Assembly (NCBI GenBank): GCA_047517965.1
Contig: JAKZRU010000001.1
Span: forward strand, 39,714 to 103,713
Length of the DNA: 64,000 bases
Direction of reading: 5' to 3'
Source: Gammaproteobacteria bacterium
GTDB taxonomy: Bacteria; Pseudomonadota; Gammaproteobacteria; Arenicellales; JAJDZL01
The stretch's first letter is position 1. Every line of letters begins with the position of its first letter. The notes beneath the pieces were generated by a model that did not search any database, was not told the DNA's origin, and saw only the letters and a program-made list of their open reading frames with translations. Of the stretch, positions 3,992 to 21,343 are shown piece by piece. A program made the translations under genes and the position numbers.

Positions 3992-3994
3992 ATC

Positions 3995-5890: not shown

Positions 5891-6230
5891 TTTAATTTGA
5901 AATTCCGTTAATGTCGAAATCTGTATTACTAAGAATGCACTAATCTGTTTCAATTTGCAAGATTTGGTGTTCAGTGAACGCCCTACTCCTGTGCGTAATT
6001 TTCTCTACTTCGATCCTCAATTCGATTGAAGTCGAAATTGAGTCCACCGAATTTACAACTGAATGCATGATTGACAGTCGCACGTTATAACCCTTCTTGA
6101 AAAATTCAATAAATGTTTATTTCTGCAAAGGAAATCAGTTTCGAGCAATTTACAATTCGTCAAATTTTTTCATGGTACAGTATAGTAATACGCGTCAGTT
6201 TGAGAGTTCATTGCCAGGGGAGGTGATCTC

Positions 6231-9200
6231 ATGTCGATACTGCATTCACAACAGACACAAGCTCTCATAAACCGGCTTGTTGGCGATGAAGGCAATTTGC
6301 ATTCGCTTGAAGCCAAACAGTTTACTGAGTTCGTTCGTCACTATTTTCACGGAGCTCCGTACGAGGACTTGAGTGAACGAGACCTATTCGATCTGAGAGG
6401 TGCAGCACTTGCTCACATGGAATTGGGTAGAGTACGCAAGCAGGGTGAATCCAAAATTCGCATCTACACCCCGGACGTAGAAAGGGATGGCTGGCGGTCT
6501 AAACATGCTGTTCTTGAAGTGGTTACATTTGATCGGCCGTTTTTAGTTGACTCCATTACTATGGTTTTGAAGGAGATGGGGCTAAAAACTCACTTTGCGG
6601 TACACCCGGTGTTTGCCGTCAAGAGAAAGTCAAGTGGCGAACTCGAAAAAATCGCTTCCCCATTGAATGCAGATTTCATGGATGGGGAGTTTGAATCTTT
6701 TCTTCAATTTCAATTCTTCAAGCCATCTGGTGCGGATGAGATAAATGCTCTCAAGGCTCGATTGCTGCATACTCTCCAACTCATTGAGTCTGCTGTAACG
6801 GATTGGCCAGTGATGCGAAAACGAGTCGGGGAGACAGCTCAATATCTAGAACAGGAAATGAAACGCTCCGACAACGCAGCCATGGAAGACCACGCTGAAT
6901 TCTGCGATTGGATGAAGGACGGCAATTTCACATTCCTCGGTTACTGTGAATTCAAGAACTTAAAGTCGGGAAAGATTAGATTTGACGAAAAATCCAGACT
7001 TGGCGTGTTGCGGAACATAGACGATATTAGCGAAGTATTTCCAGTTGTCGAATTCAGTTCTAACGAACGAGAACAGTTGCTCACCATCACTAAAGCAAAC
7101 ACACACGCTCCGATTCATCGCGCGTCTTATATGGATTTAATCACGGTCCCGAAGTTTTCATCAAGCGGAAAGTGCACTGGCCTGCGAGTCCTAGTCGGGC
7201 TTTTTAGTTCGACTGCATACAATGGCAGTGCCAACCTAATCCCTTTACTCAGAGTCAAGATAAAGAAAGTCCTTCAAAGAAGCAGGTTTTCGGAAACGAC
7301 GCACAGCATTCGAGCACTGACGAACATCATTGACAATTATCCCCGCGACATGCTGTTTCGCGTTTCTGTTGACGAATTGTTTGAGGATGTCGCCGGTACT
7401 CTGGAACTGCAAGAACGTCAGCGTATTAAAGTGTTTTTAAGACGAGAACAGTACGGACGGTTTTATTCGGCGATCGTATATGTTCCACAGGAGCTGTTCA
7501 ATCGAACTTTACGAGTAAATATCGGGGAAATTCTAATGGAATCCCTAGAAGGCAAATCTTCGGATTTCTCTTCCACATTTTCTGAGTCAGTGCTAGCGCG
7601 TATTACCTATACGATTCATGTCGACAAAGACTCTGTTCCCAAAAGGGAATTGGCGGAGATTCAGCAATTGGTTGAGGATACCGCGATTACTTGGCAAGAT
7701 TCGCTATACAAGGCAACAATTGAACGCTATGGCGAAGAGACTGGCACGCAGTACTTTAAAAACTATGAAAATTCCTTCAGTGCCAGTTATCAGGAAGATC
7801 ATTCTCCATGGATGGCCGCGGCGGATTTTGAGCGATTTGCCAGATTGGGTGAGGATGAACTCATCGTTTCTTTTTATCGTCCTTTAAGCGAAGCGAACGA
7901 AGAAAAATGTCATCTGAAACTGTACTGCTACGGGAAACAGATTTCCCCTTCAGACGCGTTGCCTTATCTCGAAAATATGGGACTATACGTAGTCGAAGAA
8001 AGGCCATACGAAATCAGACCGAAATCCGGTGAAGCTCTTTGGATGCACGACTTCACGGTTGTGCATTCGAATGGGGATCATTTGGATCCGGACCAACAGC
8101 GAGCGACTTTCGAAGAAGCGTTCCGACGTATCTGGCGCGGAGACTCAGAGAACGACGGATTCAATCGTCTAGTGCTGACGGCAAATTTAGCTTGGAGGCA
8201 GGTAGTTATTTTGCGAGCGTACAGTCGCTACCTCAAACAGATCGGAAATCCATTCAGTGACTCCTATATTACTGAAACCCTCACTCGACATGTTGAAATG
8301 ACCGTCAGTTTAGTCGAGTATTTTCAAATGCTGTTCGATCCATCTTCAGATTCAACGGACAGTCAACGCAATCAAATTTTGGATCAACTCAACGGCTATC
8401 TGGATGAAATTACGAGTCTTGATGAAGACGTCATGATGCGCAATTGTATGAATGTGATTTCATCTACGATTCGAACGAATTTCTACCGCACTGACGAGAG
8501 TGGTCAACCGCTGAGCTATTTGTCGTTCAAGATTGATGCATTCAAAATTTTGAAAATGCCGGATCCCAGGCCGAAATACGAAATATTCGTTTACTCAACT
8601 CGTACTGAAGCTGTACATCTGCGCGGTGGCAAGGTCGCGCGTGGTGGATTACGTTGGTCAGATCGCAGGGAAGATTTTCGCACCGAAGTGCTTGGACTGG
8701 TGAAAGCACAAATTGTGAAGAACGCGGTGATTGTTCCGGTCGGTTCAAAAGGTGGTTTTGTTATTAAACAGCCACCACCAGAAGGTAAAACGTTACTTGA
8801 CGAGGCTATCTACTGTTATTCGACATTCATCCGTGGCATGCTGGATATCACGGACAATATCGTCGACAACGAGATTGTAAGCCCACCAGATGTAAAGTGT
8901 TACGACGACAGCGATCCATATCTGGTTGTTGCCGCAGACAAAGGTACAGCGACCTTTTCCGATATTGCCAACGGACTGGCGGGCGAATACGGGTTCTGGC
9001 TCGGCGATGCATTCGCATCCGGTGGTTCTGTCGGTTATGATCACAAAGGAATGGGGATTACCGCCCGTGGTGCGTGGGAATCGGTCAAGCGTCATTTTCG
9101 CGAACTTGGCACCGACATTCAGACCACTGACTTTACAGCAATTGGAATTGGCGACATGAGCGGCGATGTATTCGGAAACGGTATGCTATTGTCCCGTCAT

Positions 9201-11033
9201 ATTAAGCTGGTTGGTGCGTTCAATCACATTGAAATCTTCCTTGACCCAAATCCAGACGCGGCAATCAGTTACGAAGAACGTAAACATCTATTTGACAATC
9301 CAGGACTGACTTGGAAGGATTACAACAAGAAACTGATTTCAAAAGGCGGCGGGGTTTTCGATCGAACAGCTAAGGCGATCAACATTTCTCCTGAAGTGCA
9401 AAAGAGATTGCACATCAGCGAGAGCAAACTCGCCCCGACTGAATTGCTGAATGCCATGCTCAAGGCTCCGATTGATCTTTTATGGAACGGTGGCATTGGA
9501 ACCTACGTAAAAGCGACATTGGAATCACATGCAGATGCGGCAAACCGTTCGAATGATCTGATTCGAGTAAATGGCAGTGATCTTGGCTGCAAAGTTGTCG
9601 GCGAAGGCGGAAATCTTGGCATGACCCAGCTTGGTCGGGTTGAGTACTGCTTGAATGGCGGTCGTTGTTACACTGATTTCATTGACAACTCCGGCGGCGT
9701 CGACTGCTCCGACCATGAAGTCAATATCAAGATCTTGCTGAATCAGGTTGTGAACAATGGCGAGATGACCATGAAGCAACGGAAACAGATACTGAAGAAC
9801 ATGACCGATGAAGTCGCAAGTCTGGTTCTTACTGATAATTACCAACAAAGCCAGGCATTAAGCTTGATTAATGCGAATTCAAAAAATCTGTTGCAGGAGC
9901 ACGTACGCTTCATTCGAGAGTTGGAGTCATCTGGGGACTTGAATCGACAAATAGAATTCCTGCCTGACCGGGATGAAATGAAACGGCGAGAATCGGAAGG
10001 AATCGGGCTCAAGTTTCCAGAACTATCGGTACTGCTTGCGTATTCCAAAATGACACTCTACCAAACTTTACTCGCATCCGATCTTCCGGAGGACCCATAC
10101 CTGATCAAAGAACTATACGAATATTTCCCAGAGAGATTGGCAAGGGATTTCAAAGAAGAGATTCAGAAACACCGTCTGAAACGGGAAATTGTTGCTACTT
10201 ATGTGACAAACAACATGGTCAATCGCGTCGGCCCCACATTTGTCTTGCGCATGCAGCAATTTACTGGTGCTGATAGTTGTGATGTTGCTAGGGCATATTG
10301 TGCGGCGAGAGAGATTTTTCAGGTTCAGGATGTCTGGAAAGCAATTGAAGACCTCGACAATAAGGTTGCAGCACAAACCCAGATGACAATGCTTTCATTT
10401 GTTGGAGGACTGTTGGAGCGAGCAACACTATGGCTTCTTCGCCACCGTAGTCTTCCGATCGATGTTGAAGGAACGGTGAACTATTTTAGAGGCGAGATTA
10501 GCAAACTTTCCAAAGGACTATCGAAGGCGTTGACAGATCAGTACACCCAACCACTGAATGAACACGTTCGGGCGTTGATGGACGATCATGTTCCGGAGCC
10601 ACTCGCTCGACAGATTTCGGAGTTCATTCCACTTTCAACCGCGTTCGACATCGTTGAAATCATCAAGAATTCAAAAAAACCGATGTTATTTGTCACACAG
10701 GTGTATTTTGATGTTGGAGCACGTTTGGATTTGGTGTGGATTCGTCAGAGAGTTTCAATGCTTCCTGTAGAAAATCACTGGCACAGTCTTGCCAAATCAA
10801 GGCTGAGCGATGATATTCACGCTCACCAGTATGCAATTGCCAGCGATGTCGTGCGGGAGGCGAAAACGAATGACCCTACTGAAGCGGTATCGGAGTGGAT
10901 AGAATCCAACAACAATGGTTGCCGTATGCTGGCCAATATCATTTCCGACATGAAGTCTATCAGTAAAATAGATTTTGCTACACTTTCGGTTGCTATCAGC
11001 GAGGTTCACCTACTCGGAAGAGCTTCTGAATAG
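6231..11033 (+). CDS. gdhB: NAD-specific glutamate dehydrogenase, large (about 180 kDa) GdhB type
   Basis: 1600 aa. The catalytic-core block RGGKVARGGLRWSDRREDFRTEVLGLVKAQIVKNAVIVPVGSKGGFV matches my recollection of the bacterial NAD-GDH family signature. Length is characteristic. Confidence 0.9.
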   Translation: MSILHSQQTQALINRLVGDEGNLHSLEAKQFTEFVRHYFHGAPYEDLSERDLFDLRGAALAHMELGRVRKQGESKIRIYTPDVERDGWRSKHAVLEVVTFDRPFLVDSITMVLKEMGLKTHFAVHPVFAVKRKSSGELEKIASPLNADFMDGEFESFLQFQFFKPSGADEINALKARLLHTLQLIESAVTDWPVMRKRVGETAQYLEQEMKRSDNAAMEDHAEFCDWMKDGNFTFLGYCEFKNLKSGKIRFDEKSRLGVLRNIDDISEVFPVVEFSSNEREQLLTITKANTHAPIHRASYMDLITVPKFSSSGKCTGLRVLVGLFSSTAYNGSANLIPLLRVKIKKVLQRSRFSETTHSIRALTNIIDNYPRDMLFRVSVDELFEDVAGTLELQERQRIKVFLRREQYGRFYSAIVYVPQELFNRTLRVNIGEILMESLEGKSSDFSSTFSESVLARITYTIHVDKDSVPKRELAEIQQLVEDTAITWQDSLYKATIERYGEETGTQYFKNYENSFSASYQEDHSPWMAAADFERFARLGEDELIVSFYRPLSEANEEKCHLKLYCYGKQISPSDALPYLENMGLYVVEERPYEIRPKSGEALWMHDFTVVHSNGDHLDPDQQRATFEEAFRRIWRGDSENDGFNRLVLTANLAWRQVVILRAYSRYLKQIGNPFSDSYITETLTRHVEMTVSLVEYFQMLFDPSSDSTDSQRNQILDQLNGYLDEITSLDEDVMMRNCMNVISSTIRTNFYRTDESGQPLSYLSFKIDAFKILKMPDPRPKYEIFVYSTRTEAVHLRGGKVARGGLRWSDRREDFRTEVLGLVKAQIVKNAVIVPVGSKGGFVIKQPPPEGKTLLDEAIYCYSTFIRGMLDITDNIVDNEIVSPPDVKCYDDSDPYLVVAADKGTATFSDIANGLAGEYGFWLGDAFASGGSVGYDHKGMGITARGAWESVKRHFRELGTDIQTTDFTAIGIGDMSGDVFGNGMLLSRHIKLVGAFNHIEIFLDPNPDAAISYEERKHLFDNPGLTWKDYNKKLISKGGGVFDRTAKAINISPEVQKRLHISESKLAPTELLNAMLKAPIDLLWNGGIGTYVKATLESHADAANRSNDLIRVNGSDLGCKVVGEGGNLGMTQLGRVEYCLNGGRCYTDFIDNSGGVDCSDHEVNIKILLNQVVNNGEMTMKQRKQILKNMTDEVASLVLTDNYQQSQALSLINANSKNLLQEHVRFIRELESSGDLNRQIEFLPDRDEMKRRESEGIGLKFPELSVLLAYSKMTLYQTLLASDLPEDPYLIKELYEYFPERLARDFKEEIQKHRLKREIVATYVTNNMVNRVGPTFVLRMQQFTGADSCDVARAYCAAREIFQVQDVWKAIEDLDNKVAAQTQMTMLSFVGGLLERATLWLLRHRSLPIDVEGTVNYFRGEISKLSKGLSKALTDQYTQPLNEHVRALMDDHVPEPLARQISEFIPLSTAFDIVEIIKNSKKPMLFVTQVYFDVGARLDLVWIRQRVSMLPVENHWHSLAKSRLSDDIHAHQYAIASDVVREAKTNDPTEAVSEWIESNNNGCRMLANIISDMKSISKIDFATLSVAISEVHLLGRASE

Positions 11034-11332: not shown

Positions 11333-12913
11333 ATGACAACTTACTCACATCCAACACCAGTATTTCAAGCGAATCGGGTAATAGATCGTGCTCAATGGGC
11401 AGGAAGCGTCTTTTCGAACTACGCTCGTGAAGATGTTCTACGAATTACTAAAGCGGCTGCTGATCTGGGTGAGGCGACTGCTCGAAAGTATGCAGACTGG
11501 GCAGTAGCTGAAACTGGATTTGGCAATGCCGATCACAAGGAAATCAAGAATCGGATGTGCAGTGAGGGGATTTTCAAGTATTACAAGGATCAGAATTTTA
11601 CCAGCCACCGAGTTGACCACCAACGACAGGTAGTCGAAATTCCTCGTCCTGCAGGAGTTGTTTTTGCATTGACTCCTTCTACCAATCCGGTTTGCTCGGT
11701 TTTCTTCAAGGTATTACTCGCCTTGATGACCCGAAATTCGATTGTTATAAGTCCGCACCCAGCAGCGAAAGAGTGCTGCACAGACGCCGCACTAAAACTT
11801 GCCGAGGCTGTTGAGAAGGCGGGTGCACCGGATGGTGTCGTTCAAGTTATTGAGAATCCGACCTTGGAAGTCATCCACGCAGTAATGAGTTCTGAACGAG
11901 TAGATGTGATACTGGCCACAGGCGGTTCTCCAATGGTGCGAGCTGCGTACAGTTCAGGCAATCCTGCACTCGGTGTCGGTCCGGGTAACTGTCCGGCATT
12001 TGTCGATGAATCCGCCGACATCGAACATGCTGCAAAGTGCATTTCGGACAGCAAGGCTTTCGACAACAGTGTTTTGTGTACCAATGAATCTGCCGTAATT
12101 GCCCATAAATCCATCAGCGACGCACTGATTGTGGCATTACAAAAAAATGGATGTTATCTGTGCAGTGATGAGGAGCGTGACCGCTTGGCGGATGTGCTGT
12201 TTCCAGAAGGCGCATTTGATACAGTTGTCATCGGCAAGTCTGCTGAATGGATTGCGGAACGGGCTAGAATTCGAGTTCCAGCCAAAACTAGAGTTCTAAT
12301 AACGCCTCTCGAACGAATTGGTGATGATTATGTATTAAGCCGGGAAAAGCTCTGTCCGGTTTTGGGGTTTTATACGGTTTCCAATCGGGATGCAGCGTTC
12401 AAAGCGTGCAGTGCAATGGTTCGTCGAATGGGAAGCGGGCATTCAGCAGCCATACACTGCAAGGATCAGAAAGTGATTCTTGAATTCGGAGCTCATCTCA
12501 ATGTTCTGAGAACTCCAGTAAATGCGCCGTGCAGTACCGGCGCTTCGGGATTTGATACGAATCTAGCTCCCACGATGACTGTCGGCACCGGATTTTTCGG
12601 CAGAAGCTCAGTAGGAGAGAACGTCGGACCGCAACATCTGGTGCAGTGGTCGAAGGTCGCTTACAGCAAGGATGAAACTGTCGACATGAGAGAGTTCGAC
12701 AACCTCGTATTGCCGACAGTACGACCCTATAGTCGGGGTGATGGGCCGATCGACTACTCATTTTCCAGTGGATTTGAATCTAACGGTTCATCAGGACAGT
12801 CGAGTTCTGAAAGCGTTGATGGAGCTGTTGGGCGAGACTTGCGAGATGAAATTCACCGGATCATCCTTGAAGAGATCAGATCGTTACAACTTGTGAGTGA
12901 GTCACGGCACTAA
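11333..12913 (+). CDS. CoA-acylating aldehyde dehydrogenase (EutE/PduP-like) with C-terminal extension
   Basis: Catalytic-Cys block AFDNSVLCTNESAVIA. Co-oriented and translationally coupled (TAATG) with a BMC shell gene. About 85 aa lie beyond the ALDH core: an S/G-rich linker and then an amphipathic helix. The ATG at 11333 (MTTYSHPTP) is preferred over the TTG at 11249. Confidence 0.85.
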   Translation: MTTYSHPTPVFQANRVIDRAQWAGSVFSNYAREDVLRITKAAADLGEATARKYADWAVAETGFGNADHKEIKNRMCSEGIFKYYKDQNFTSHRVDHQRQVVEIPRPAGVVFALTPSTNPVCSVFFKVLLALMTRNSIVISPHPAAKECCTDAALKLAEAVEKAGAPDGVVQVIENPTLEVIHAVMSSERVDVILATGGSPMVRAAYSSGNPALGVGPGNCPAFVDESADIEHAAKCISDSKAFDNSVLCTNESAVIAHKSISDALIVALQKNGCYLCSDEERDRLADVLFPEGAFDTVVIGKSAEWIAERARIRVPAKTRVLITPLERIGDDYVLSREKLCPVLGFYTVSNRDAAFKACSAMVRRMGSGHSAAIHCKDQKVILEFGAHLNVLRTPVNAPCSTGASGFDTNLAPTMTVGTGFFGRSSVGENVGPQHLVQWSKVAYSKDETVDMREFDNLVLPTVRPYSRGDGPIDYSFSSGFESNGSSGQSSSESVDGAVGRDLRDEIHRIILEEIRSLQLVSESRH

Positions 12914-13518
12914 TGGCTGACATTCGTTCCTACATTTTCATAGATCAACTTCAGCCGAAAACCATGTGCTATCTAGGAAGTTGGATTCGTGGATATTTGC
13001 CGAAAACCAACATGGCGGCAATGGTAATAGAAGTCGTTCCAGGGCTGCACATTGAAGGAATTACGGATATCGCATTGAAGAGTGTCAATGTAAAGCCTGG
13101 AATTTTGGTTGTAGAACGTCAATTCGGCTATCTGGAATTCCATTCGCATTCAACTGCCGATGTTGTCGCAGGCGGAGAGGCGGTAATGGAGGCTCTCAAT
13201 GCAAATGCTAGTGATGCCATGCCGCCTGAAATTCTTGCGTCAACCATCGTAAAGCGAGTCGATGATTACCATGCATTCTTGATCAATCGAAACAAGCTTG
13301 GTTCTATGGTACTGCCTGGCGAATCGCTTTTCGTCCTTGAGATGCAACCAGCCTCATACAGCATATTGGCCACGAATGAAGCGGAGAAGGCAGCGGATGT
13401 CAAGGTCGTTGACTATCGAATGATCGGTGCCACAGGTCGGGTCTATCTGAGTGGTTCGGAGAGCGATGTACGTTGTGCAGCTCGGGCAGCGGAAGAAGCA
13501 TTGGAAGCAAGGATGTAG
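12913..13518 (+). CDS. BMC shell protein, tandem BMC domains (BMC-T-like), paralog 1
   Basis: 201 aa with two BMC-like halves (MVIEVVPGLHIEGITDIALKSVNVKPGILVVERQFGYLEFHS; FVLEMQPASYSILATNEAEKAADVKVVDYRMIGATGRVYLSG). Clear paralog of 14729..15358. Confidence 0.75.
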   Translation: MADIRSYIFIDQLQPKTMCYLGSWIRGYLPKTNMAAMVIEVVPGLHIEGITDIALKSVNVKPGILVVERQFGYLEFHSHSTADVVAGGEAVMEALNANASDAMPPEILASTIVKRVDDYHAFLINRNKLGSMVLPGESLFVLEMQPASYSILATNEAEKAADVKVVDYRMIGATGRVYLSGSESDVRCAARAAEEALEARM

Positions 13519-13525
13519 AGAACAA

Positions 13526-14056
13526 ATGAGCGGCAATACTTTTTCCAGTGACCAGATTCGCGCGGTCGTGCGAGAGGCTCTACTTGAAGCGCTTCCAGGC
13601 GCAACGAATGGCGGCCGCCCCCAAAAGCAAATGCCGGATTGCCCGCTGATGAAGCAAATTCTCGAAACCATTGCGACAAACTGTAATTCAGCCATAGTCG
13701 TGGATGTGGCAACGGACCGAAAATTTAACGAATTTTTAAAGAATTTAGCCAAATGCCTTCAAGACCAGGATGTCGAAGCACTGATTCTTTCCAATCGACT
13801 GAAATTCGCACTAAAGAATTTCGAAAGGCAAAGAAGTCAAAATCTTCATGTAAGCTCGCACAAGAGCAGTCATCAGAGTCAAAATACCAATGATGGGCAG
13901 AGCAATGGGCGCTTGGACTCTGGAGTGCTGACGGAATCGAAAGTATTGGCGCTGGCAAAAACGAATCAGTGTATTGAAATAGGGAGTAAAGTCGTTTTGA
14001 CTCCGCTAGCCAAAGATCGAGCGCGCAAAATCGGACTAAAAATAGTGAGGCAGTAG
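13526..14056 (+). CDS. BMC-associated protein of unknown function (putative encapsulated or scaffold protein)
   Basis: Internal ATG at 13526 of track ORF 13451..14056 avoids overlap with the shell gene. It has an N-terminal amphipathic helix (DQIRAVVREALLEAL), a P/G linker, an S/Q/N-rich stretch, and the C-terminal motif KVVLTPLAKDRARKIGLKIV. It sits between shell genes with 7- and 6-nt spacers. Confidence 0.6.
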   Translation: MSGNTFSSDQIRAVVREALLEALPGATNGGRPQKQMPDCPLMKQILETIATNCNSAIVVDVATDRKFNEFLKNLAKCLQDQDVEALILSNRLKFALKNFERQRSQNLHVSSHKSSHQSQNTNDGQSNGRLDSGVLTESKVLALAKTNQCIEIGSKVVLTPLAKDRARKIGLKIVRQ

Positions 14057-14062
14057 ATAGTC

Positions 14063-14329
14063 ATGAAAGTTGGAACTGTAATCGGAAAAATATGGGCGAC
14101 TCGCAAATTGAACGAGTTGCCGAACGGAGCGCTGTTGGAGATTGATCTGATTGACAACAGTGAGAATCCAGAAAGAATTCTGGCCTTTGACCCACTTGGA
14201 GCAGGTTCGGGAGAACGTGTTCTCGTTACTCAAGGTTCTGTAGCGAAGGGGTGGTTCAAGTCTGGAAACGCCGTTATTGATGCCTTGGTTATCGGAATTG
14301 TTGACGATACCTCAGACAACGGCAACTAA
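14063..14329 (+). CDS. BMC vertex protein (BMC-P, EutN/CcmL family)
   Basis: 88 aa. MKVGTVIGKIWATRK...GERVLVTQGSVA...DALVIGIVDD is the typical EutN/CcmL pattern. Confidence 0.9.
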   Translation: MKVGTVIGKIWATRKLNELPNGALLEIDLIDNSENPERILAFDPLGAGSGERVLVTQGSVAKGWFKSGNAVIDALVIGIVDDTSDNGN

Positions 14330-14362
14330 TTTAACTGTCAAATTAATTTTCAGGAGAAAATC

Positions 14363-14644
14363 ATGTCAAATGCAATTGGATTTATTGAAACTCGGGGCTA
14401 CGTTGCCGCGTTCACTGCCGCAGATGCTATGGTGAAAGCTGCCAATGTTGAAATTATTACTCGTGAGCAGGTTGGTGCTGGACTAGTATCGGTGCTGGTG
14501 AGAGGCGATGTTGGTGCTGTGAAAGCGGCAACTGAAGCTGGATCTGAAGCTGCCGCTTCGGTGGGGGAAGTGATTTCCGTACACGTAATTCCTCGTCCGC
14601 ATGCGGATGTCGTTAAAAAATTTGATGTAGCTGCAGATAAGTAG
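14363..14644 (+). CDS. BMC hexamer shell protein (BMC-H, PduA/EutM-like)
   Basis: 93 aa. [29 protein letters not shown]...[23 protein letters not shown] is a canonical single BMC domain. AGGAGA RBS. Confidence 0.95.
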
Positions 14645-14728
14645 AAATTTTCACAGTTTTAGACTTTCTGTTGATGTGTAAACTGATTTGCCACAATGCT
14701 AGACTGCTACAGTTGAAGGTAATCGACT

Positions 14729-15358
14729 ATGGCTGATTTGCGAGTCTATCTGCAGATTGAGAGTCTTCAGACGCAATTTGCTGCCTATATGGCAACTGCA
14801 TTGCGGGCGAGAGGCTATGTACCTTTTCAAGGTATGCATTCGCTCATAATTGAAATATCGCCTGCGCTTGCCATACACAGAGTCATTGATCTTGCATTGA
14901 AGTCTGTGCCTGGAATTGAACCGGGGATTCTGTATGTAGAACGTCAGTTCGGCATTCTGGAATTACACAGCACAAAAATGGAAGATCTGGAAGAGGCTGG
15001 CAATGCGATTCTTGACGGGTTTAGCCTTAAGGCGGAAGATCGCCTGAAACCGCGAATTCTGTATTCAGATTTAGTAGCGGAGGTTGTTGACCAGCACTCG
15101 GTGATTATCAATCGCCAGAGAGACGCGTCTATGATTCTGCCCGGCGAGTCGCTCTTACTGCTAGAGACTACACCGGCACTGTTCGCAGCAGCAGCAGCGA
15201 ATGAAGCAGAAAAAGCCGTTCCGGAAAATGTTCTGGTTGACTGTCAAATGTTCGGCGTTTCAGGAAGGGTCTTTATTTCGGGCGATGAGAAAAATACCCA
15301 AAAGGCACTGAGTCACGTACTTGAGGTGATAGAGAACATTCCCGGTCGAGAGCACTAG
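14729..15358 (+). CDS. BMC shell protein, tandem BMC domains (BMC-T-like), paralog 2
   Basis: 209 aa. It shares MAD(I/L)R.Y..I..LQ, VERQFG.LE.HS, (V/I)LPGESL..LE..PA and NEAEKA blocks with 12913..13518. Confidence 0.75.
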   Translation: MADLRVYLQIESLQTQFAAYMATALRARGYVPFQGMHSLIIEISPALAIHRVIDLALKSVPGIEPGILYVERQFGILELHSTKMEDLEEAGNAILDGFSLKAEDRLKPRILYSDLVAEVVDQHSVIINRQRDASMILPGESLLLLETTPALFAAAAANEAEKAVPENVLVDCQMFGVSGRVFISGDEKNTQKALSHVLEVIENIPGREH

Positions 15359-15436
15359 TGGGGCTGAATTCTTTCAAAAGTATTTCTAATGTCGCGAATG
15401 CGATTGCATTCCCGGCATTGAGGGTTGCGGAATCAA

Positions 15437-15898
15437 CTACTTTTTAAGTACTTCAGGCCAATTCGCATCGGCCCGCTCAATGTTTCCAGGGATGTCTTTG
15501 CTCCACGTCTTACGTACGCTTCGACTGAAGTTCAGATAGAGTCGATCATCCACGATAGACCATGCATCAGGGTCAGTCTTAGCAGTGTAGTTGTTGGATA
15601 CTGCCCATGCACAATATCCCCCATAGCGTGGCGCCCATCTTTCTGGGTCGGATTCGAATAGGTCGCGGTTTTCATTACTCGCGAAACGCCAATTGGCTCC
15701 GTTCCATTGCACGGTATAGCTGCTATCACCTTTGACGGGTTTCTGTTCCTTGTGATAAGCGAGAGCATCATACCCGTTGATTGCGAACTCTCCTGTGCCA
15801 GTAAATACGGGCGGTTCTGCAGCGAAGGCTTGAGTGGCGATCATCAGCAAACCTATTACAATCAGAACGGGTTGTGAAATTCTGGTAAAAATGTTCAT
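15437..15898 (-). CDS. Secreted YHS-domain protein
   Basis: 153 aa. Signal peptide MNIFTRISQPVLIVIGLLMIATQAFA. Core INGYDALAYH...WNGANWRFASNENRDLFESDPERWAPRYGGYCAWAV. Confidence 0.75.
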   Translation of the reverse strand: MNIFTRISQPVLIVIGLLMIATQAFAAEPPVFTGTGEFAINGYDALAYHKEQKPVKGDSSYTVQWNGANWRFASNENRDLFESDPERWAPRYGGYCAWAVSNNYTAKTDPDAWSIVDDRLYLNFSRSVRKTWSKDIPGNIERADANWPEVLKK

Positions 15899-16231
15899 AT
15901 AGCTCTCCTGTCGTATCTATCGCATTACGCTGGATTTGCAATTTCCTGAGTCAATTTACACATTTTAGCGGAAATCAGAATTCGCTTTCATTCAGAAAAT
16001 CAGTTTGGAATTTACCGATTTTTTCTAGAATGAATTATGGAATTTAGGCACAAGACAGTCTGAAATAGAACTGTCCGTCCGCTCAGGTTGTTGGCTTATG
16101 AGCTGCGCGTGTCTGGACTCCGAATTTGGGCAGTCCAAACCTCAAAAACCTACCACGCGGCGATTGGCGCACAACTTTCATACCGGTTTTGCTACGGCCG
16201 GTGGGGTTTGTTTAGATTTAGTGTGCTTGGC

Positions 16232-16768
16232 CTATTTTGAAAGGACACCAGGCCAGTTCCCGTCTGCACTCTCTATATAGCCCGGTATGTCTTTAGTCCA
16301 CTTTTTTCTTACTCTCAGACTATAGTTCAGGTAGAGTCGGTCTTCGTAAACCGTCCAAGCTCTTGGATCAGTCGGCGCTAACGCATCATTGGCTGCCGCA
16401 TATGCGCAGTACCCACCATAGCGAGGTGCCCATCGTTCAGGATCCGATATAAAGAGATCGCGGTTTTCAGCAGAAGCAAAATGCCAGACAGCGCCTTTCC
16501 ACTCAGTCGAAAATTCGCTGCTGCCCTTTACAGGACGTTGTTCCAGGTGATAGGAGACGGGGTCATAAGCTCTGATAGCAATGTCTACTTTACCAGTAAA
16601 AACATAGTCTTTCTCATCAGCTATCGCATTGGAGGCAATAATCAGAAAGCTTAAAAAAACAGTTGTAAGAGTCGAAACTCGGAAAAAAGCAGACAATGTA
16701 ATAACTCCATTAAATTTTATAGGTCGGCTATGAATGCTGTAGACAAAGTCTAGACGCTTTAGTTTCAT
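16232..16768 (-). CDS. Secreted YHS-domain protein (paralog)
   Basis: Same core as the neighbour (IRAYDPVSYH...WKGAVWHFASAENRDLFISDPERWAPRYGGYCAYAA). The ATG at 16768 (MKLKRLDF...) is preferred over the TTG at 16831. Hydrophobic signal or anchor LTTVFLSFLIIASNAIA. Confidence 0.7.
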   Translation of the reverse strand: MKLKRLDFVYSIHSRPIKFNGVITLSAFFRVSTLTTVFLSFLIIASNAIADEKDYVFTGKVDIAIRAYDPVSYHLEQRPVKGSSEFSTEWKGAVWHFASAENRDLFISDPERWAPRYGGYCAYAAANDALAPTDPRAWTVYEDRLYLNYSLRVRKKWTKDIPGYIESADGNWPGVLSK

Positions 16769-16827
16769 ATTCTGTTCTCGACAGTTGCAAATATTTAGAT
16801 TTAGGGCAAATTTTTTTTCGGATCTGA

Positions 16828-17841
16828 TCAATCGCTGAATTTCGACAGATAGGCCTCACACAATCCAACGGTTTCGGCGGTGTACGGCAAGCCCATAGAT
16901 TGGGCTAGTTTCGTTTCGGAGTGCGATCCAATCCATGCAACCAGAAGCAGACGACGAAGCATGACGAATGTAGGGATTTCATGCTCGTCTTCCTCCAGCA
17001 AGTCCATGACTGAGCGATAACCTCGCACCCATGCCTGAATCAGATCAGGTACATCCTCTCTTGCCTCAAAAAAGCTGAGTGCAGTAGCACAGTCATACAT
17101 GAACCAGCTGAATCCACAGTCATCGAAATCTATTACTTTAGTTACATCTCCTTCAATCAGCAGATTGGCGAGTCGAATGTCGCAGTGAACGAGCCCCCAT
17201 CTACGCGAGCGTTGCCCGAAATCCCGCAACCTAGACTTGATTAGTTCTGCAGTCTTGCCGAACAGTTGTTCTCTTTCGAGATTCATTCCCATACCGTCCT
17301 GCCATCTCCCCCAGTGAGGCTTGCTGCCAAGACTTGTTTCAAAATCCCATGTATAGCGTTCAAACCAGGAAGGTCGTTGCCAGGTCATTGAGTGCTGATG
17401 CATTTGTGCGGAAACTTTCCCAAGCAGCTCAAATGGGTCAAGTAAATTTTCTTCGGGGGGCTCTACGCCCGATTCCCAATCGAACATGACAACGTGTCGA
17501 GCGCCACCCGGCATTCCTTTCACATGTATCCACTGAATGTTCTGATCATCTCTTCCAGGCACGATTGTTGGTGTGATTACCCCAGCATCTTCACGCAAGG
17601 CATCTGTCCATGCATGCTCCGAAGCGATCGCTGTTTTAGAGTGATACCCTTCTCGGTGTACTCGTAGAGCCCACTTCTTACCACTGACAGGATCTTCTAC
17701 ACGATAGGTTGCATTTTCCGAAATATTGATGAGTTCAACCCCAACATCAGACGGCAAGTCATAAAACGGAATAGCGTTCTGTGCGACTTGTCGTAGCAAG
17801 GTAAGTTGTTGTTCATGGGGCAATTCATCAAATTTTTGCAT
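16828..17841 (-). CDS. APH-fold phosphotransferase (putative amino-alcohol kinase)
   Basis: 337 aa. Catalytic loop LVHCDIRLANLL and metal-binding VIDFDDCG match the aminoglycoside/choline-ethanolamine kinase fold. It lies directly downstream of the class-III PLP enzyme. Confidence 0.8.
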   Translation of the reverse strand: MQKFDELPHEQQLTLLRQVAQNAIPFYDLPSDVGVELINISENATYRVEDPVSGKKWALRVHREGYHSKTAIASEHAWTDALREDAGVITPTIVPGRDDQNIQWIHVKGMPGGARHVVMFDWESGVEPPEENLLDPFELLGKVSAQMHQHSMTWQRPSWFERYTWDFETSLGSKPHWGRWQDGMGMNLEREQLFGKTAELIKSRLRDFGQRSRRWGLVHCDIRLANLLIEGDVTKVIDFDDCGFSWFMYDCATALSFFEAREDVPDLIQAWVRGYRSVMDLLEEDEHEIPTFVMLRRLLLVAWIGSHSETKLAQSMGLPYTAETVGLCEAYLSKFSD

Positions 17842-17860
17842 TTCTCTCTCCTGTTCGCTG

Positions 17861-19177
17861 TTATGCAGCGTTAGCCATCTCCCGTTTCACTTGTTGGTTT
17901 GAGTCTGCGGATTTTCTTGCAGAAATTCCCTGAAAGGCAGATGCCCGCGCTTGTCCCAAAGCGGTATCGAGTCGGTTCAAAATATCGTCGCAGAGCTCCT
18001 TGTCAACTAGAATTCCCGGCTTGAATTGCAACACCTTGGGGTCCAGGGAAGAGAATATAGCCCACACACCGTTGTGGAACAATGCTTTCATAACATGAAT
18101 CGCACCTTCCGGATGACTGAATTCCAACCCAATTACAACACCTCTCTGGCGAATTCCGACAAAAAAGTCTGAGTAAGTATTCCGAAGCTGCTCTAGTCCG
18201 TTGCGTATGTATCGTGCAATGTAGTGCACCATGGAACGCACTTCAGGCCGATTGGAAATCTCAAGCACCTTGGCTGCTGCAATACAGCCAAGCTCAGCAC
18301 CGCCAAATGTAGACATGTGTCCCCAACCGTCTTCTTTCAACCACGCTCCGGCTCGCTCACTGACTACGACTGCACCAATCGGATAGATTCCACCTGATAG
18401 TCCTTTTCCGGTTACCAAAATATCGGGTATGACTCCATAAGTGTCAATCCCCCAAATTTCGCCGCATCGCATTAAGCCGGTCTGTACTTCATCAGCGATG
18501 AATAGTGTGTCGACTCTTTCACAGGCCGCCTTTATTGCACTCAGGTACCCCTGTTTTGGCATGGGGAACCCATAAGTTGCAGGAATAGTCTCTATGATTA
18601 CGCAAGCGGCGTCGCCCACTCGAATTTCGCGCTCAATCGCCTCAAGATCGTTGAACGGAACTTTGACGACCTCCTGCTTCGATGCATCACTTAGAAACAG
18701 TTTGGAATATCGATCATCACCGACTTGCACTGCGAGTCCGGTATGACCGTGGTAGCAATGATCAATGCAGATTATTTTACGTCTTTGGGTGGCATGGCGT
18801 GCACACTTCAGTGCTATGTCGATTGCTTCGCCGCCGCCTGATGCGTAGATTGTATACTGCAATCCTTCCGGAGTACACTCAGCCAGCATCTGCGCGACAT
18901 TTGTTCGCATTAACGAAGGAAAGTGGTGGTTGCCGATGTCGAAATATTTCATTCCCTCCTTTACTGCCGCCACGACTTCGGGGTTGCGATGTCCGAGATT
19001 GTATGTGCCTCCGTTCAGGTGAACATCAATCAGACGTTTTCCATCCATATCATACAGATAGTAGTCTTCCCGCCGATCGATCACCAGGTCTACTCCGAAA
19101 TTTTGCCAGTCGGTAGTTTTGCCTGGATTCCAGTATTCTTTAGTGCGGTCCAAAAATTCTTGCTTTGTTTCTTTCAT
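17861..19177 (-). CDS. Class-III aminotransferase-fold PLP enzyme (putative amino-alcohol O-phosphate phospho-lyase)
   Basis: 438 aa. ASGGGEAID, FIADEVQTGLMRCG and the PLP-lysine block VTGKGLSGG indicate the class-III fold. The lyase assignment is inferred only from context (kinase + AldDH + BMC). Confidence 0.8.
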   Translation of the reverse strand: MKETKQEFLDRTKEYWNPGKTTDWQNFGVDLVIDRREDYYLYDMDGKRLIDVHLNGGTYNLGHRNPEVVAAVKEGMKYFDIGNHHFPSLMRTNVAQMLAECTPEGLQYTIYASGGGEAIDIALKCARHATQRRKIICIDHCYHGHTGLAVQVGDDRYSKLFLSDASKQEVVKVPFNDLEAIEREIRVGDAACVIIETIPATYGFPMPKQGYLSAIKAACERVDTLFIADEVQTGLMRCGEIWGIDTYGVIPDILVTGKGLSGGIYPIGAVVVSERAGAWLKEDGWGHMSTFGGAELGCIAAAKVLEISNRPEVRSMVHYIARYIRNGLEQLRNTYSDFFVGIRQRGVVIGLEFSHPEGAIHVMKALFHNGVWAIFSSLDPKVLQFKPGILVDKELCDDILNRLDTALGQARASAFQGISARKSADSNQQVKREMANAA

Positions 19178-19255
19178 GTAATTCTCCTTTGCCCCAATAC
19201 GGACAGGGATTTAGTTTCTTACACGCTCAATTTATTTGAGTAAAACAAAAAAAAC

Positions 19256-19284
19256 TTGACAGTTGATATCGAATTGTTGATAAC
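19256..19284 (+). promoter_or_regulatory. Candidate sigma70-type promoter for the SDR gene, with GTTGATA/TTGTTGA repeats
   Basis: TTGACA (19256-19261), 17-nt spacer, GATAAC (19279-19284), about 100 nt upstream of the ATG at 19384. GTTGATA occurs twice and TTGTTG(A/C) three times between 19262 and 19318. Confidence 0.3.
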
Positions 19285-19383
19285 GCACCGAAAATGCGAA
19301 ATTGTTGCATTGTTGATTCAGAAATCAGTACATTATCCGAACCTATTTAAACATCAATCGAACTAAAACGAGGTAAATGAGCC

Positions 19384-20163
19384 ATGCTTACATCAGTAGA
19401 AGGCAGATCGGTCATAGTGACGGGGTCCAGTAAAGGAATTGGAAAAGGCATTGCTACAGTATTTGCCAATCAGGGCGCGCGGGTGTTAATTGTTGCACGC
19501 GGGATTTCTGACGCCGAAGCTACGGCAGCGGAAATCAGGGAAGCAGGTGGTACGGCATCCGCTTTCGCGGCGGATGTAACGAAATCTGAGGAATTGGATG
19601 CCATGGCAGCTGCTGCGACTGAGCGCCATGGCGGGATTGATGTGCTGTGTTGCAATGCTGGCATATTTCCTCAGAGTCATTTGGAAAACATGTCTAGCGA
19701 CGAGTGGGACCTGGTGCTTGGAACAAACCTGAAAGGAACATTTCTTGCAATAAAGAGCTGTTTGCCCCATCTCAAGGAGAGCAGTTGTGGGCGAATCATA
19801 TTGACATCTTCGATTACAGGTCCCATAACCGGATATCCAGGCTGGACGCACTATGGTGCAAGCAAATCAGGTCAGCTGGGATTTATGAAAACCGCTTGCA
19901 TGGAATTCGCCAAGTACGGAATTACGATCAATGCTGTTATGCCGGGCAACATCATAACGGAGGGACTAATGGGTCTTGGAGAGGATTACCTTGAGACTAT
20001 GGCAGTATCAATTCCATTGAAGCGTCTGGGATCAGTGACGGATATAGGAAACGCTGCATTGTTTTTTGCATCTGACGAAGCGGGTTACATTACCGGCCAG
20101 ACAATTGTTGTGGACGGTGGACAGACAATTCCAGAGTCAGTTGAAGCACTCGAAGAGGCATAG
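19384..20163 (+). CDS. Short-chain dehydrogenase/reductase (SDR)
   Basis: TGSSKGIGKGIA cofactor motif, NAG, and catalytic YGASK. Divergent from the aminotransferase operon. Confidence 0.9.
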   Translation: MLTSVEGRSVIVTGSSKGIGKGIATVFANQGARVLIVARGISDAEATAAEIREAGGTASAFAADVTKSEELDAMAAAATERHGGIDVLCCNAGIFPQSHLENMSSDEWDLVLGTNLKGTFLAIKSCLPHLKESSCGRIILTSSITGPITGYPGWTHYGASKSGQLGFMKTACMEFAKYGITINAVMPGNIITEGLMGLGEDYLETMAVSIPLKRLGSVTDIGNAALFFASDEAGYITGQTIVVDGGQTIPESVEALEEA

Positions 20164-20303
20164 ACTAGTAACAGTGGGAACAGACAGTCGAAGCTGCTGA
20201 ACGCCATTCCGATCAGAGTCTAGAATTTGTCCCTGATTTCTAACCGAAAAGCAGCCATCAATGTGTAATCGATGCTTGTATCTGCATTTGCAATTCTAAA
20301 AGT

Positions 20304-21320: not shown

Positions 21321-21343
21321 GTAATGGATATAGTTCTGAATTG

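What the first reader, a model, noticed from the sequence alone, without database searches (positions are those of the whole stretch)
11333..20163. Amino-alcohol (aminoacetone / RMM-type) microcompartment locus in a Gram-negative-type genome, split into shell and enzyme operons
The plus-strand operon is tightly packed (TAATG overlap; 6-84-nt spacers). It reads acylating AldDH, tandem-BMC, unknown, BMC-P, BMC-H, tandem-BMC. The convergent minus-strand operon reads class-III PLP enzyme, APH-fold kinase and two YHS proteins, and there is a divergent SDR. SDR + amino-alcohol kinase + class-III-fold O-phospho-lyase + CoA-acylating AldDH is the signature set I recall for the Rhodococcus/Mycobacterium microcompartment. 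In that pathway aminoacetone goes to 1-amino-2-propanol, then to its O-phosphate, then to propionaldehyde + NH3 + Pi, and finally to propionyl-CoA. Here the genome also encodes Sox, TolC and Tat-type binding proteins. The locus has no PduL-type phosphotransacylase, alcohol dehydrogenase, permease or local regulator, so the metabolosome core is incomplete. The same chemistry on ethanolamine (via phosphoethanolamine to acetaldehyde) would be a B12-independent ethanolamine route inside a BMC.
Basis: partly seen in the sequence, partly recalled or inferred. Interest (0 to 1): 0.7.

Follow-up and report, generated by a model that had tools for sequence, protein, structure and literature searches.

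The report
Known-type amino-alcohol microcompartment locus (RMM1/AAUM1)

Summary
The genes are present exactly as described. All four shell proteins have the Mycobacterium smegmatis RMM shell proteins as their best natural match among solved structures. The kinase matches the M. smegmatis aminopropanol kinase (6EF6, E 4e-86). The SDR matches 6CI8/6CI9 (E 7e-94), which I recall as its aminopropanol dehydrogenase. The order AldDH, BMC-Tdp, unknown, BMC-P, BMC-H, BMC-Tdp recurs throughout 80 related loci from Proteobacteria and Actinobacteria.

The "split" convergent layout matches Bauldia litoralis, which Sutter et al. 2021 label RMM1/AAUM1 (140 loci, Actinobacteria and Proteobacteria). The type, its presence in Gram-negatives and its lack of PduL and alcohol dehydrogenase are therefore all published.

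One claim is wrong. A PotABCD-like ABC importer (833-4807) and a QhpR-like AraC regulator (4808-5953) belong to the locus. A gdhB insertion separates them from AldDH, and the two YHS genes are a second lineage-specific insertion.

The PLP enzyme has an invariant Gln and Thr where E. coli GabT has its R398/E211 pair. That favours a phospho-lyase over a transaminase, but no assay is available. AldDH and the conserved unknown protein carry similar encapsulation-peptide-like helices.

Verdict: new member of a known kind, low interest.

The parts
833..1984 (+). Periplasmic substrate-binding protein of an ABC importer. It has a twin-arginine signal (SRRNFLK) and is only distantly PotD-like.
   Evidence: NCBIfam PotD E 1.5e-4 only; no Pfam hit. 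Orthologues at 58-85% identity sit next to RMM genes in about 25 proteobacterial loci (L087).
2036..3112 (+). ABC transporter ATPase, PotA-like.
   Evidence: ABC_tran + TOBE_2. PotA 298 bits, below its cut-off. Conserved next to RMM loci.
3131..4807 (+). Two ABC permeases, PotB-like (3131-3991) and PotC-like (3995-4807).
   Evidence: BPD_transp_1; PotB and PotC are the best NCBIfam hits; conserved synteny.
4808..5953 (-). AraC-family regulator of the QhpR (amine-responsive) type; the likely local activator.
   Evidence: Arabinose_bd + HTH_18. NF049968 QhpR scores 311.9, above the cut-off of 250. Orthologues at 44-73% identity lie directly divergent from AldDH in L004, L002, L083 and others.
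6231..11033 (+). 1600-aa NAD-specific glutamate dehydrogenase (gdhB). It is a lineage-specific insertion between the regulator and AldDH and is probably not part of the system.
   Evidence: Bac_GDH_CD and related domains. Present at this place in L003 but absent in L004, L088 and all other loci.
11333..12913 (+). CoA-acylating aldehyde dehydrogenase (EutE/PduP class). A Ser/Gly-rich linker leads to a C-terminal amphipathic encapsulation-peptide-like helix (residues about 498-518, nt about 12824-12886).
   Evidence: Aldedh; acetylating AldDH models at 412-440 bits, below their cut-offs. 50% identical to the Mycolicibacterium RMM AldDH. The terminal LRxEIRRxIxEELR helix is conserved in nearly all loci and is the most amphipathic 14-mer in the protein.
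12913..13518 (+). BMC-Tdp shell trimer 1; orthologue of M. smegmatis MSM0275 (rmmT1).
   Evidence: PDB 5L39 E 2.5e-85; CcmP-like.
13526..14056 (+). Conserved RMM protein of unknown function, at the position I infer to be that of msmeg_0274. It has an N-terminal EP-like helix, a small middle domain, a disordered linker and a C-terminal beta-alpha-beta-alpha-beta domain with a TPLAxDxAR motif.
   Evidence: An ORF ending in the TPLAxDxAR motif sits between T1 and BMC-P in 62 of the 80 related loci. No Pfam or NCBIfam family. AF2 model pLDDT 75. No significant fold match.
14063..14329 (+). BMC-P vertex pentamer; orthologue of MSM0273.
   Evidence: EutN_CcmL 4e-22; PDB 5L37 is the best hit at 2.2e-19.
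14363..14644 (+). BMC-H hexamer; orthologue of MSM0272.
   Evidence: BMC domain 1.6e-27; 5L38 is the best natural PDB hit at 2.6e-34.
14729..15358 (+). BMC-Tdp shell trimer 2; orthologue of MSM0271 (rmmT2).
   Evidence: PDB 5SUH E 7.8e-78.
15437..16831 (-). Two secreted YHS-domain proteins (15437-15898, and 16232-16696 or -16831). They are a lineage-specific insertion between the convergent operons and are probably unrelated to the compartment.
   Evidence: NF041384 YHS_seleno_dom 2e-49 and 1.5e-45. Found only in the nearest relatives L001 and L003. Absent in L004, L088, L002, L083 and all others.
16828..17841 (-). APH-fold amino-alcohol kinase; orthologue of the M. smegmatis (S)-1-amino-2-propanol kinase.
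   Evidence: PDB 6EF6 E 4.4e-86 over residues 18-334, with the HxDxxxxN and DFDD motifs aligned.
17861..19177 (-). Class-III-fold PLP enzyme of the RMM-specific clade; a candidate amino-alcohol O-phosphate phospho-lyase. Catalytic K258 is kept. Q384 and T201 replace the GabT R398/E211 pair.
   Evidence: Aminotran_3 1.5e-71. Below the cut-off of all 25 NCBIfam models listed, of 69 that matched. 62% identical to the Mycolicibacterium RMM enzyme. The (V/A/I)LQ(F/Y/W)K(P/L)G motif, with its Gln, is kept in all 61 loci where the site could be read.
19384..20163 (+). SDR whose best solved-structure matches are M. smegmatis 6CI8/6CI9, which I recall as the (S)-1-amino-2-propanol dehydrogenase. It is divergent from the PLP-kinase operon.
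   Evidence: PDB 6CI8/6CI9 E 7e-94. Same divergent position in L001, L083 and L088.

Best explanation
This is a complete, intact RMM1/AAUM1-type bacterial microcompartment locus (aminoacetone / 1-amino-2-propanol utilisation) in an Arenicellales gammaproteobacterium. It has the same convergent two-operon layout as the catalogued RMM1 locus of Bauldia litoralis. The full system spans about 833-20163 and is interrupted by two lineage-specific insertions, gdhB and two YHS genes.

Proposed working, with each step marked:
- A QhpR-like AraC regulator switches the genes on in response to an amine (inferred).
- A PotABCD-like ABC importer takes up the amino ketone or amino alcohol (inferred).
- The SDR interconverts aminoacetone and (S)-1-amino-2-propanol (shown for the M. 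smegmatis and Rhodococcus orthologues; inferred here).
- The APH-fold kinase makes 1-amino-2-propanol O-phosphate with ATP (shown for the M. smegmatis orthologue; inferred here).
- The class-III PLP enzyme eliminates phosphate and ammonia to give propionaldehyde (inferred; I found no assay).
- The encapsulation-peptide-tagged acylating AldDH turns the aldehyde into propionyl-CoA inside a shell built from one BMC-H, one BMC-P and two different BMC-Tdp (inferred from orthology).
- The conserved 176-aa unknown protein carries an EP-like helix resembling that of AldDH. It is probably a lumen or assembly component (speculative).
- How NAD+ and CoA are recycled is unknown for this whole BMC type.
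For: The best natural PDB hits of the four shell proteins are M. smegmatis MSM0275, MSM0271, MSM0272 and MSM0273. The kinase matches 6EF6 at 4e-86 and the SDR matches 6CI8/6CI9 at 7e-94. AldDH is 50% and the PLP enzyme 62% identical to the Mycolicibacterium locus proteins. The order AldDH-T1-unk-P-H-T2 is universal in the 80 related loci kept out of at least 581 matching stretches in species-representative genomes. The layout is identical to Bauldia litoralis ATCC 35022, labelled RMM1 by Sutter 2021. An NJ tree of AldDH+T1+T2+H puts the window with Arenicellales in the Bauldia/Kaustia clade, apart from the Rhodobacteraceae (RMM2-genus) clade. The catalogue definition is one BMC-H, one BMC-P and two different BMC-Tdp, in Actinobacteria and Proteobacteria. 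The transporter and AraC regulator are syntenic in about 25 loci. The PLP enzyme lacks the GabT R398/E211 pair, invariantly, across 61 loci. EP-like helices are conserved on the AldDH C-terminus and the unknown protein's N-terminus.
Against: No enzyme of this organism has been assayed. In the literature I could reach, the phospho-lyase step is only a 'candidate' even in M. smegmatis. The PLP enzyme is more similar to putrescine aminotransferase (E 2e-47) than to the one solved phospho-lyase, human ETNPPL (E 2e-29). Published alternative pathways exist: lactaldehyde/lactyl-CoA and methylglyoxal/pyruvyl-CoA. Nothing in the locus or the window recycles NAD+ or CoA. Only AldDH and the unknown protein show EP-like helices, so which enzymes are inside the shell is open.
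Confidence: 0.8

Rival explanations
1. Same organelle, but the main physiological substrate is ethanolamine or another small amino alcohol. The route would be ethanolamine to O-phosphoethanolamine to acetaldehyde + NH3 + Pi to acetyl-CoA, a B12-independent ethanolamine route inside a BMC.
For: The best NCBIfam hits of the AldDH are acetaldehyde dehydrogenase (acetylating) models, though below their cut-offs. From my own recollection, the classical Erwinia and Pseudomonas amino alcohol kinase and phospho-lyase activities (Jones, Faulkner and Turner, 1970s) act on both ethanolamine and 1-aminopropan-2-ol, and the M. smegmatis kinase was described as only 'moderately specific'. The importer and regulator differ from the actinobacterial GabP/GntR set.
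Against: An SDR whose best PDB match (E 7e-94) is the M. smegmatis enzyme I recall as aminopropanol dehydrogenase is conserved in the locus. It has no role in an ethanolamine route. Nothing tested here separates the substrates.
Confidence: 0.12
2. The PLP enzyme is a true aminotransferase. 1-amino-2-propanol would give lactaldehyde and then lactyl-CoA, with the APH protein acting late as a phosphotransferase (Ravcheev 2019). Alternatively aminoacetone would give methylglyoxal and then pyruvyl-CoA (Axen 2014).
For: Both schemes are published. The closest solved relatives of the PLP enzyme are transaminases.
Against: The APH orthologue in M. smegmatis was solved and, as the title of the 2018 JBC paper cited states, characterised as an (S)-1-amino-2-propanol kinase. 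The PLP enzyme has an invariant Gln and Thr at the positions of GabT R398 and E211. From my own knowledge, those residues bind or gate the alpha-carboxylate of the amino-acid/oxo-acid co-substrate. The kinase and PLP genes travel together in almost every locus.
Confidence: 0.06
3. The locus is a decaying or silent remnant. Two insertions have uncoupled it from its regulator and split its operons, so no compartment is made.
For: gdhB separates the AraC regulator from AldDH. YHS genes sit between the convergent operons. Relatives carry other insertions at the same two places.
Against: Every gene is full length and matches its orthologues in length: AldDH 526, T1 201, unknown 176, P 88, H 93, T2 209, kinase 337, PLP 438, SDR 259 aa. 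The insertions lie between transcription units, not within them. Near relatives at 83-98% identity keep all of the genes.
Confidence: 0.02

Closest known systems
RMM1 / AAUM1 microcompartment (type locus M. smegmatis msmeg_0269-0279; Axen 2014, Sutter 2021, Mallette & Kimber 2017-2018)
   Same: The shell set is identical: one BMC-H, one BMC-P and two distinct BMC-Tdp, each the best match to its M. smegmatis counterpart. The enzyme set is the same: SDR, APH kinase, class-III PLP enzyme and acylating AldDH with a C-terminal EP-like helix. The core order AldDH-T1-unk-P-H-T2 is the same, and PduL and AlcDH are likewise absent.
   Different: The kinase-PLP pair forms a separate operon convergent on the shell operon, whereas all genes lie on one strand in Actinobacteria. 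A PotABCD-like ABC importer and a QhpR-like AraC regulator replace the GabP-type permease and GntR regulator. gdhB and two YHS genes are inserted.
Proteobacterial RMM1 locus of Bauldia litoralis ATCC 35022 (labelled RMM1 in the Sutter 2021 trees) and of Kaustia mangrovi
   Same: The layout is the same gene for gene: SDR divergent from PLP-kinase, convergent on T2-H-P-unk-T1-AldDH, then the AraC regulator and ABC permeases. Protein identities are 55-85%.
   Different: Those loci lack the gdhB and YHS insertions. Their hosts are Alphaproteobacteria rather than Arenicellales.
RMM2 / AAUM2 (Rhodobacteraceae such as Roseovarius nubinhibens and Pelagicola)
   Same: The same protein families and the same AldDH-T1-..-T2 core.
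   Different: In the Roseovarius-type loci the PLP gene lies directly upstream of AldDH, and the ABC transporter, SDR and kinase follow T2. Those shell proteins are only 46-61% (AldDH, T1) identical, and the NJ tree puts them in a separate clade.
Ethanolamine-phosphate phospho-lyase (ETNPPL/AGXT2L1) with its APH-type kinase partners (hydroxylysine kinase / AGXT2L2 pair)
   Same: The logic is the same: an APH-fold kinase makes an O-phospho amino alcohol, and a class-III-fold PLP enzyme eliminates phosphate and ammonia to give an aldehyde.
   Different: The window enzyme is not a member of that clade. Its match to 6TOR is E 2e-29, weaker than its match to putrescine aminotransferase. Lyase activity here is inferred.
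EUT and PDU metabolosomes
   Same: An aldehyde-generating signature step, an EP-tagged acylating AldDH and a BMC-H/T/P shell. Four of 39 orthologues of the unknown protein weakly hit PF15953 (PduM family; best E 0.0077).
   Different: There is no B12-dependent lyase or dehydratase, no PduL/Pta, no alcohol dehydrogenase and no PduS. The shell uses BMC-Tdp trimers.

Membership tests
RMM1/AAUM1 BMC locus | Shell complement of one BMC-H, one BMC-P and two different BMC-Tdp (Sutter 2021 Suppl. Data 2) | tested here: met
   No other shell gene appears among the window ORFs scanned.
RMM1/AAUM1 BMC locus | Shell proteins orthologous to msmeg_0271, 0272, 0273 and 0275 | tested here: met
   Best natural PDB hits: 5SUH 7.8e-78, 5L38 2.6e-34, 5L37 2.2e-19, 5L39 2.5e-85.
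RMM1/AAUM1 BMC locus | APH-family kinase of the aminopropanol-kinase type | tested here: met
   6EF6 E 4.4e-86 over nearly the full length, with catalytic motifs aligned.
RMM1/AAUM1 BMC locus | [quoted passage not shown] | tested here: met
   6CI8/6CI9 E 7e-94.
RMM1/AAUM1 BMC locus | RMM-clade class-III PLP enzyme (msmeg_0277 type) | tested here: met
   62% identical to the Mycolicibacterium locus enzyme. Shares the clade-invariant LQFKPG motif.
RMM1/AAUM1 BMC locus | Acylating AldDH directly upstream of BMC-Tdp 1; core order AldDH-T1-unk-P-H-T2 | tested here: met
RMM1/AAUM1 BMC locus | No PduL/Pta phosphotransacylase and no alcohol dehydrogenase in the locus | tested here: met
   stated for the type.
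RMM1/AAUM1 BMC locus | GabP-type amino-acid permease and GntR regulator (actinobacterial form) | tested here: not met
   Replaced by a PotABCD-like ABC importer and a QhpR-like AraC regulator, as in other proteobacterial members including the RMM1-labelled Bauldia locus. This is an accessory feature, not a defining one.
RMM1/AAUM1 BMC locus | Forms shells and degrades aminoacetone/1-amino-2-propanol | not testable with these tools
   Needs expression, EM, enzyme assays and genetics.
RMM2/AAUM2 BMC locus | RMM2 gene order and RMM2-clade shell proteins (Roseovarius/Pelagicola type) | tested here: not met
   The gene order differs. The NJ tree places the window in the Bauldia (RMM1) clade (no bootstrap support computed).
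ETNPPL/AGXT2L-type phospho-lyases | Sequence membership of the characterised phospho-lyase clade | tested here: not met
   6TOR E 1.8e-29 against putrescine aminotransferase 2e-47. No NCBIfam model reached its cut-off among the 25 listed.
Canonical class-III aminotransferases | Arg (GabT R398) and Glu (GabT E211) for recognising the amino-acid/oxo-acid co-substrate | tested here: not met
   Q384 and T201 occupy these positions. The Gln is invariant in 61 loci. The role of the two residues is from my own knowledge of GabT and OAT.
EUT metabolosome | Ethanolamine ammonia-lyase EutBC | tested here: not met
   No EutB/EutC family hit in any ORF scanned.

The most novel reading that the evidence does not exclude
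Two readings are not excluded. First, the proteobacterial RMM1 form, with its own PotABCD-like importer and QhpR-like amine-responsive regulator, may handle a broader or different set of amino alcohols, including ethanolamine. That would give marine bacteria a B12-independent, compartmentalised ethanolamine route. Second, the conserved unknown protein (13526-14056) may be an EP-bearing adaptor that brings the EP-less phospho-lyase into the shell. That would bear on which RMM enzymes are inside, an open question for this BMC type.
Probability: 0.15. Interest if true: 0.5.

Novelty: new member of a known kind. Interest (0 to 1): 0.2.

Why it matters
The locus adds an Arenicellales example to a catalogued BMC type; this marine order includes sponge-associated families. 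It also shows that the proteobacterial RMM1 unit is larger than the shell and enzyme genes: it includes a PotABCD-like importer and a QhpR-like regulator.

It does not change what is known about the type. The questions that remain interesting are type-wide and are not made more testable by this copy:
- Is the PLP enzyme really a phospho-lyase?
- Which enzymes are encapsulated?
- How are NAD+ and CoA recycled?
- What does the msmeg_0274-like protein do?

Cultured relatives with the same layout, Kaustia mangrovi and Bauldia litoralis, would be better experimental entry points.

Tried and rejected
- Promoter and terminator consensus scans of 4500-20500 gave counts at or below the shuffled expectation, so they say nothing about operon structure.
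- A hairpin in the 79-nt gap between the convergent T2 and YHS genes is not significant (z -1.42).
- The unknown protein has no Pfam or NCBIfam family. PF15953 (PDU_like, the PduM family) was hit weakly by only 4 of 39 orthologues, best E 0.0077. I keep this as a lead only.
- The AF2 model (pLDDT 75) had no Foldseek match in the PDB below E 0.1.
- A profile search of 1.84 billion representatives with the C-terminal domain found 934 clusters, but the 150 listed are all the same small-protein family, so no bridge to PduM was obtained.
- The two JBC papers by Mallette and Kimber are not held. Their content is cited from memory, from PDB entry names, or from the paper title in others' reference lists.
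- No paper in the library reports an assay of the RMM PLP enzyme.
- I considered whether the YHS proteins or gdhB belong to the system. I rejected this because they occur only in the nearest relatives, and other genes are inserted at the same two places elsewhere.
- I considered RMM2 and rejected it on gene order and tree position.

Full report
**Observation.**
- Plus strand: acylating AldDH 11333-12913, CcmP-like tandem BMC (BMC-Tdp) 12913-13518, a 176-aa protein with no family 13526-14056, BMC-P 14063-14329, BMC-H 14363-14644, and a second BMC-Tdp 14729-15358.
- Minus strand: two YHS proteins (15437-15898; 16232-16696/16831), an APH-fold kinase 16828-17841 and a class-III PLP enzyme 17861-19177.
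- A divergent SDR lies at 19384-20163.

The TAATG overlap is real, and the spacers are 7, 6, 33 and 84 nt.

**Identity of the parts.** Each shell protein has an M. smegmatis RMM shell protein as its best natural match among solved structures.

| Window protein | PDB entry (M. smegmatis protein) | E-value |
|---|---|---|
| T1 | 5L39 (MSM0275) | 2.5e-85 |
| T2 | 5SUH (MSM0271) | 7.8e-78 |
| BMC-H | 5L38 (MSM0272) | 2.6e-34 |
| BMC-P | 5L37 (MSM0273) | 2.2e-19 |

The kinase matches 6EF6 at 4.4e-86 with its catalytic motifs aligned. I recognise 6EF6 as the (S)-1-amino-2-propanol kinase of the M. smegmatis compartment. The SDR matches 6CI8/6CI9 at 7e-94; from memory these are the aminopropanol dehydrogenase of the same locus. 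AldDH and the PLP enzyme are 50% and 62% identical to the proteins of a Mycolicibacterium litorale RMM locus (L045).

**Relatives and classification.** I scanned one genome per species with a T1 alignment. At least 581 matching stretches encoded a relative, and the nearest are Arenicellales MAGs at 92% and 86% identity. The window therefore comes from an Arenicellales gammaproteobacterium, an order that includes sponge-associated candidate families.

In the 80 loci fetched, the order AldDH-T1-unknown-P-H-T2 is universal. What varies is the position of the PLP, kinase and SDR genes.
- In Actinobacteria all genes lie on one strand.
- In the window the PLP-kinase pair converges on the shell operon and the SDR is divergent. 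The same holds for near relatives (L001, L004, L088), Kaustia mangrovi (L002) and Bauldia litoralis ATCC 35022 (L083).

Sutter et al. 2021 label the Bauldia shell proteins RMM1. They define RMM1/AAUM1 as 140 loci 'in various Actinobacteria and Proteobacteria' with one BMC-H, one BMC-P and two different BMC-Tdp. Roseovarius and Pelagicola are RMM2. The Roseovarius-type loci have a different order and lower identity.

An NJ tree of concatenated AldDH+T1+T2+H puts the window with Arenicellales inside the Bauldia/Kaustia clade and away from the Rhodobacteraceae clade (no support values were computed). No Arenicellales entry appears in the 2021 catalogue files. This is therefore a new member of a known type, not a new type or variant.

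Upstream of the stated region lie four ABC-transporter genes and an AraC regulator.
- The transporter genes are a Tat-signal binding protein (833-1984), a PotA-like ATPase (2036-3112), and PotB- and PotC-like permeases (3131-4807).
- The regulator (4808-5953, minus strand) passes the NCBIfam QhpR model: 311.9 bits against a cut-off of 250.

Orthologues of all five, at 44-86% identity, sit directly beside the RMM genes in about 25 proteobacterial loci. In the Arenicellales locus L004 they run uninterrupted into AldDH. In an Acidiferrobacter contig the whole set is colinear, from the regulator through the transporter, SDR, kinase, PLP and AldDH to T2.

In the window, and in L003, a 1600-aa NAD-glutamate dehydrogenase gene (6231-11033) is inserted between the regulator and AldDH. 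In L088 a different gene is inserted at that place. The two YHS genes occur only in the closest relatives. L001 additionally has two AAA_14/DUF4143 genes there, and Bauldia, Kaustia, L004 and L088 have no YHS genes. I treat gdhB and the YHS genes as insertions at two permissive intergenic sites, not as parts of the system. The system spans about 833-20163.

**Mechanism.** The published hypothesis for this type runs aminoacetone to (S)-1-amino-2-propanol (SDR), then to its O-phosphate (kinase), then to propionaldehyde + NH3 + Pi (PLP phospho-lyase), then to propionyl-CoA (AldDH). I recall it from Mallette and Kimber 2018, which the library does not hold. Reviews cite that paper for amino alcohols as the RMM/AAUM substrate. 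The SDR and kinase steps rest on characterised orthologues. The lyase step is inferred.

I tested the lyase step by sequence. Aligned with E. coli GabT, PatA and ArgD, the RMM-linked enzymes keep the catalytic Lys (K258). They carry Gln at the position of GabT R398 and Thr at the position of GabT E211; 'ETIPATYGF' replaces 'EPxQGEGG'. The Gln motif (V/A/I)LQ(F/Y/W)K(P/L)G is kept in all 61 loci where the site could be read. From my own knowledge, that Arg/Glu pair recognises and gates the alpha-carboxylate of the amino-acid/oxo-acid co-substrate in GabT and ornithine aminotransferase. Its invariant loss, together with the near-obligate pairing with the kinase, favours a lyase over a transaminase.

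Against this, the enzyme is not in the ETNPPL clade: 6TOR scores E 2e-29 against putrescine aminotransferase at 2e-47. All 25 NCBIfam matches listed (of 69) fall below their curated cut-offs. A 2021 paper still listed ethanolamine-phosphate phospho-lyase and one close relative as the only documented lyases of class III. Two rival schemes remain formally open: lactaldehyde/lactyl-CoA and methylglyoxal/pyruvyl-CoA.

**Encapsulation.** AldDH ends in a low-complexity linker followed by an amphipathic helix, DLRDEIHRIILEEIRSL. This helix is conserved as LRxEIRRxIxEELR in nearly all loci and is the most amphipathic segment of the protein.

The unknown protein is found between T1 and BMC-P, ending in the conserved C-terminal motif, in 62 of the 80 related loci. 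I infer that this is the position of msmeg_0274, because Sutter's table numbers its neighbours msmeg_0273 and msmeg_0275. It begins with a similar helix (consensus LRxxVREVLRExL). A disordered linker follows, then a small middle domain, a second disordered linker, and a beta-alpha-beta-alpha-beta C-terminal domain with a TPLAxDxAR motif (AF2 pLDDT 75).

It has no significant fold match and no family. Its only family signal is a weak hit of 4 of 39 orthologues to PF15953, the PduM family. In Burkholderiales loci the same positional protein carries a SnoaL-like middle domain. The PLP enzyme, kinase and SDR show no comparable terminal helix. That the unknown protein is an assembly or adaptor component is speculation.

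**Cofactor recycling.** No PduL, Pta or alcohol dehydrogenase is encoded by any ORF scanned in the locus or elsewhere in the window. This is a recognised, unexplained property of RMM/AAUM as a type, not a defect of this copy.

**Verdict.** The finding is a well-preserved new member of the RMM1/AAUM1 family, and its interest is low. The residual novelty lies in type-wide open questions (lyase chemistry, substrate range including ethanolamine, role of the msmeg_0274-like protein), for which cultured relatives with the same layout are better experimental systems.

Noticed in passing
window 37636-44157 and 46580-53677: A cluster that looks like methylated-amine catabolism. It contains a Gln-synt_C protein followed by GATase_6, GXGXG and Glu_synthase proteins (gmaS/mgsABC-like), an FMO-like monooxygenase on the minus strand (Tmm-like), a Liv-type ABC transporter, and an 810-aa DUF1989+GCV_T protein (Tdm-like architecture). 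The amino-alcohol compartment therefore sits in an amine-rich catabolic neighbourhood. The names are from domain content only.
   Followed up: partly
window 6231-11033: A 1600-aa NAD-specific glutamate dehydrogenase (gdhB) is inserted between the QhpR-like regulator and AldDH. The Arenicellales locus L003 has it at the same place; L004 and L088 do not. I did not test whether it is functionally linked, for example to the ammonia released by the lyase, or is a neutral insertion.
   Followed up: partly
window 23102-30601 (minus strand): A single 2499-aa ORF whose translation has motifs I recognise as type I polyketide synthase domains. I did not run it through any family search. It lies next to the thioredoxin-like gene at 22021-23097.
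   Followed up: no
window 58057-59145 (minus strand); L001 13567-16739; L088 448-1602: AAA_14/DUF4143 ATPase genes recur in this lineage. Two copies are inserted between the YHS genes inside the relative's RMM locus (L001). One copy lies elsewhere in the window and one lies near the locus in L088. They may mark mobile or insertion-prone DNA.
   Followed up: no
L069, L071, L072 (about 10612-11577); proteins P0197-P0240: In Burkholderiales RMM1 loci (Limnohabitans, Comamonadaceae) the msmeg_0274-like protein is about 300-320 aa. It carries a SnoaL-like/DUF4440 domain between the EP-like helix and the conserved C-terminal domain.
   Followed up: partly
L087 109-1035: In an Acidiferrobacter contig with a fully colinear RMM locus, a PTA_PTB phosphate acyltransferase gene lies about 1.5 kb beyond the AraC regulator. 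This could be a CoA-recycling partner in that organism. Nothing comparable is in the window.
   Followed up: no
window 32445-37422: SoxA/TsdA-type cytochrome c, a 5'-nucleotidase-C-domain protein (SoxB-like), a thioredoxin-like protein and an outer-membrane efflux (TolC-like) protein.
   Followed up: no
window 20304-21913: An LplA/LipB-like catalytic-domain protein (338 aa, far below the lipoate-protein ligase cut-offs) and a UDG-superfamily protein follow the SDR. Both are also next to the SDR in L001 (86% and 94% identity) but in no other related locus.
   Followed up: partly
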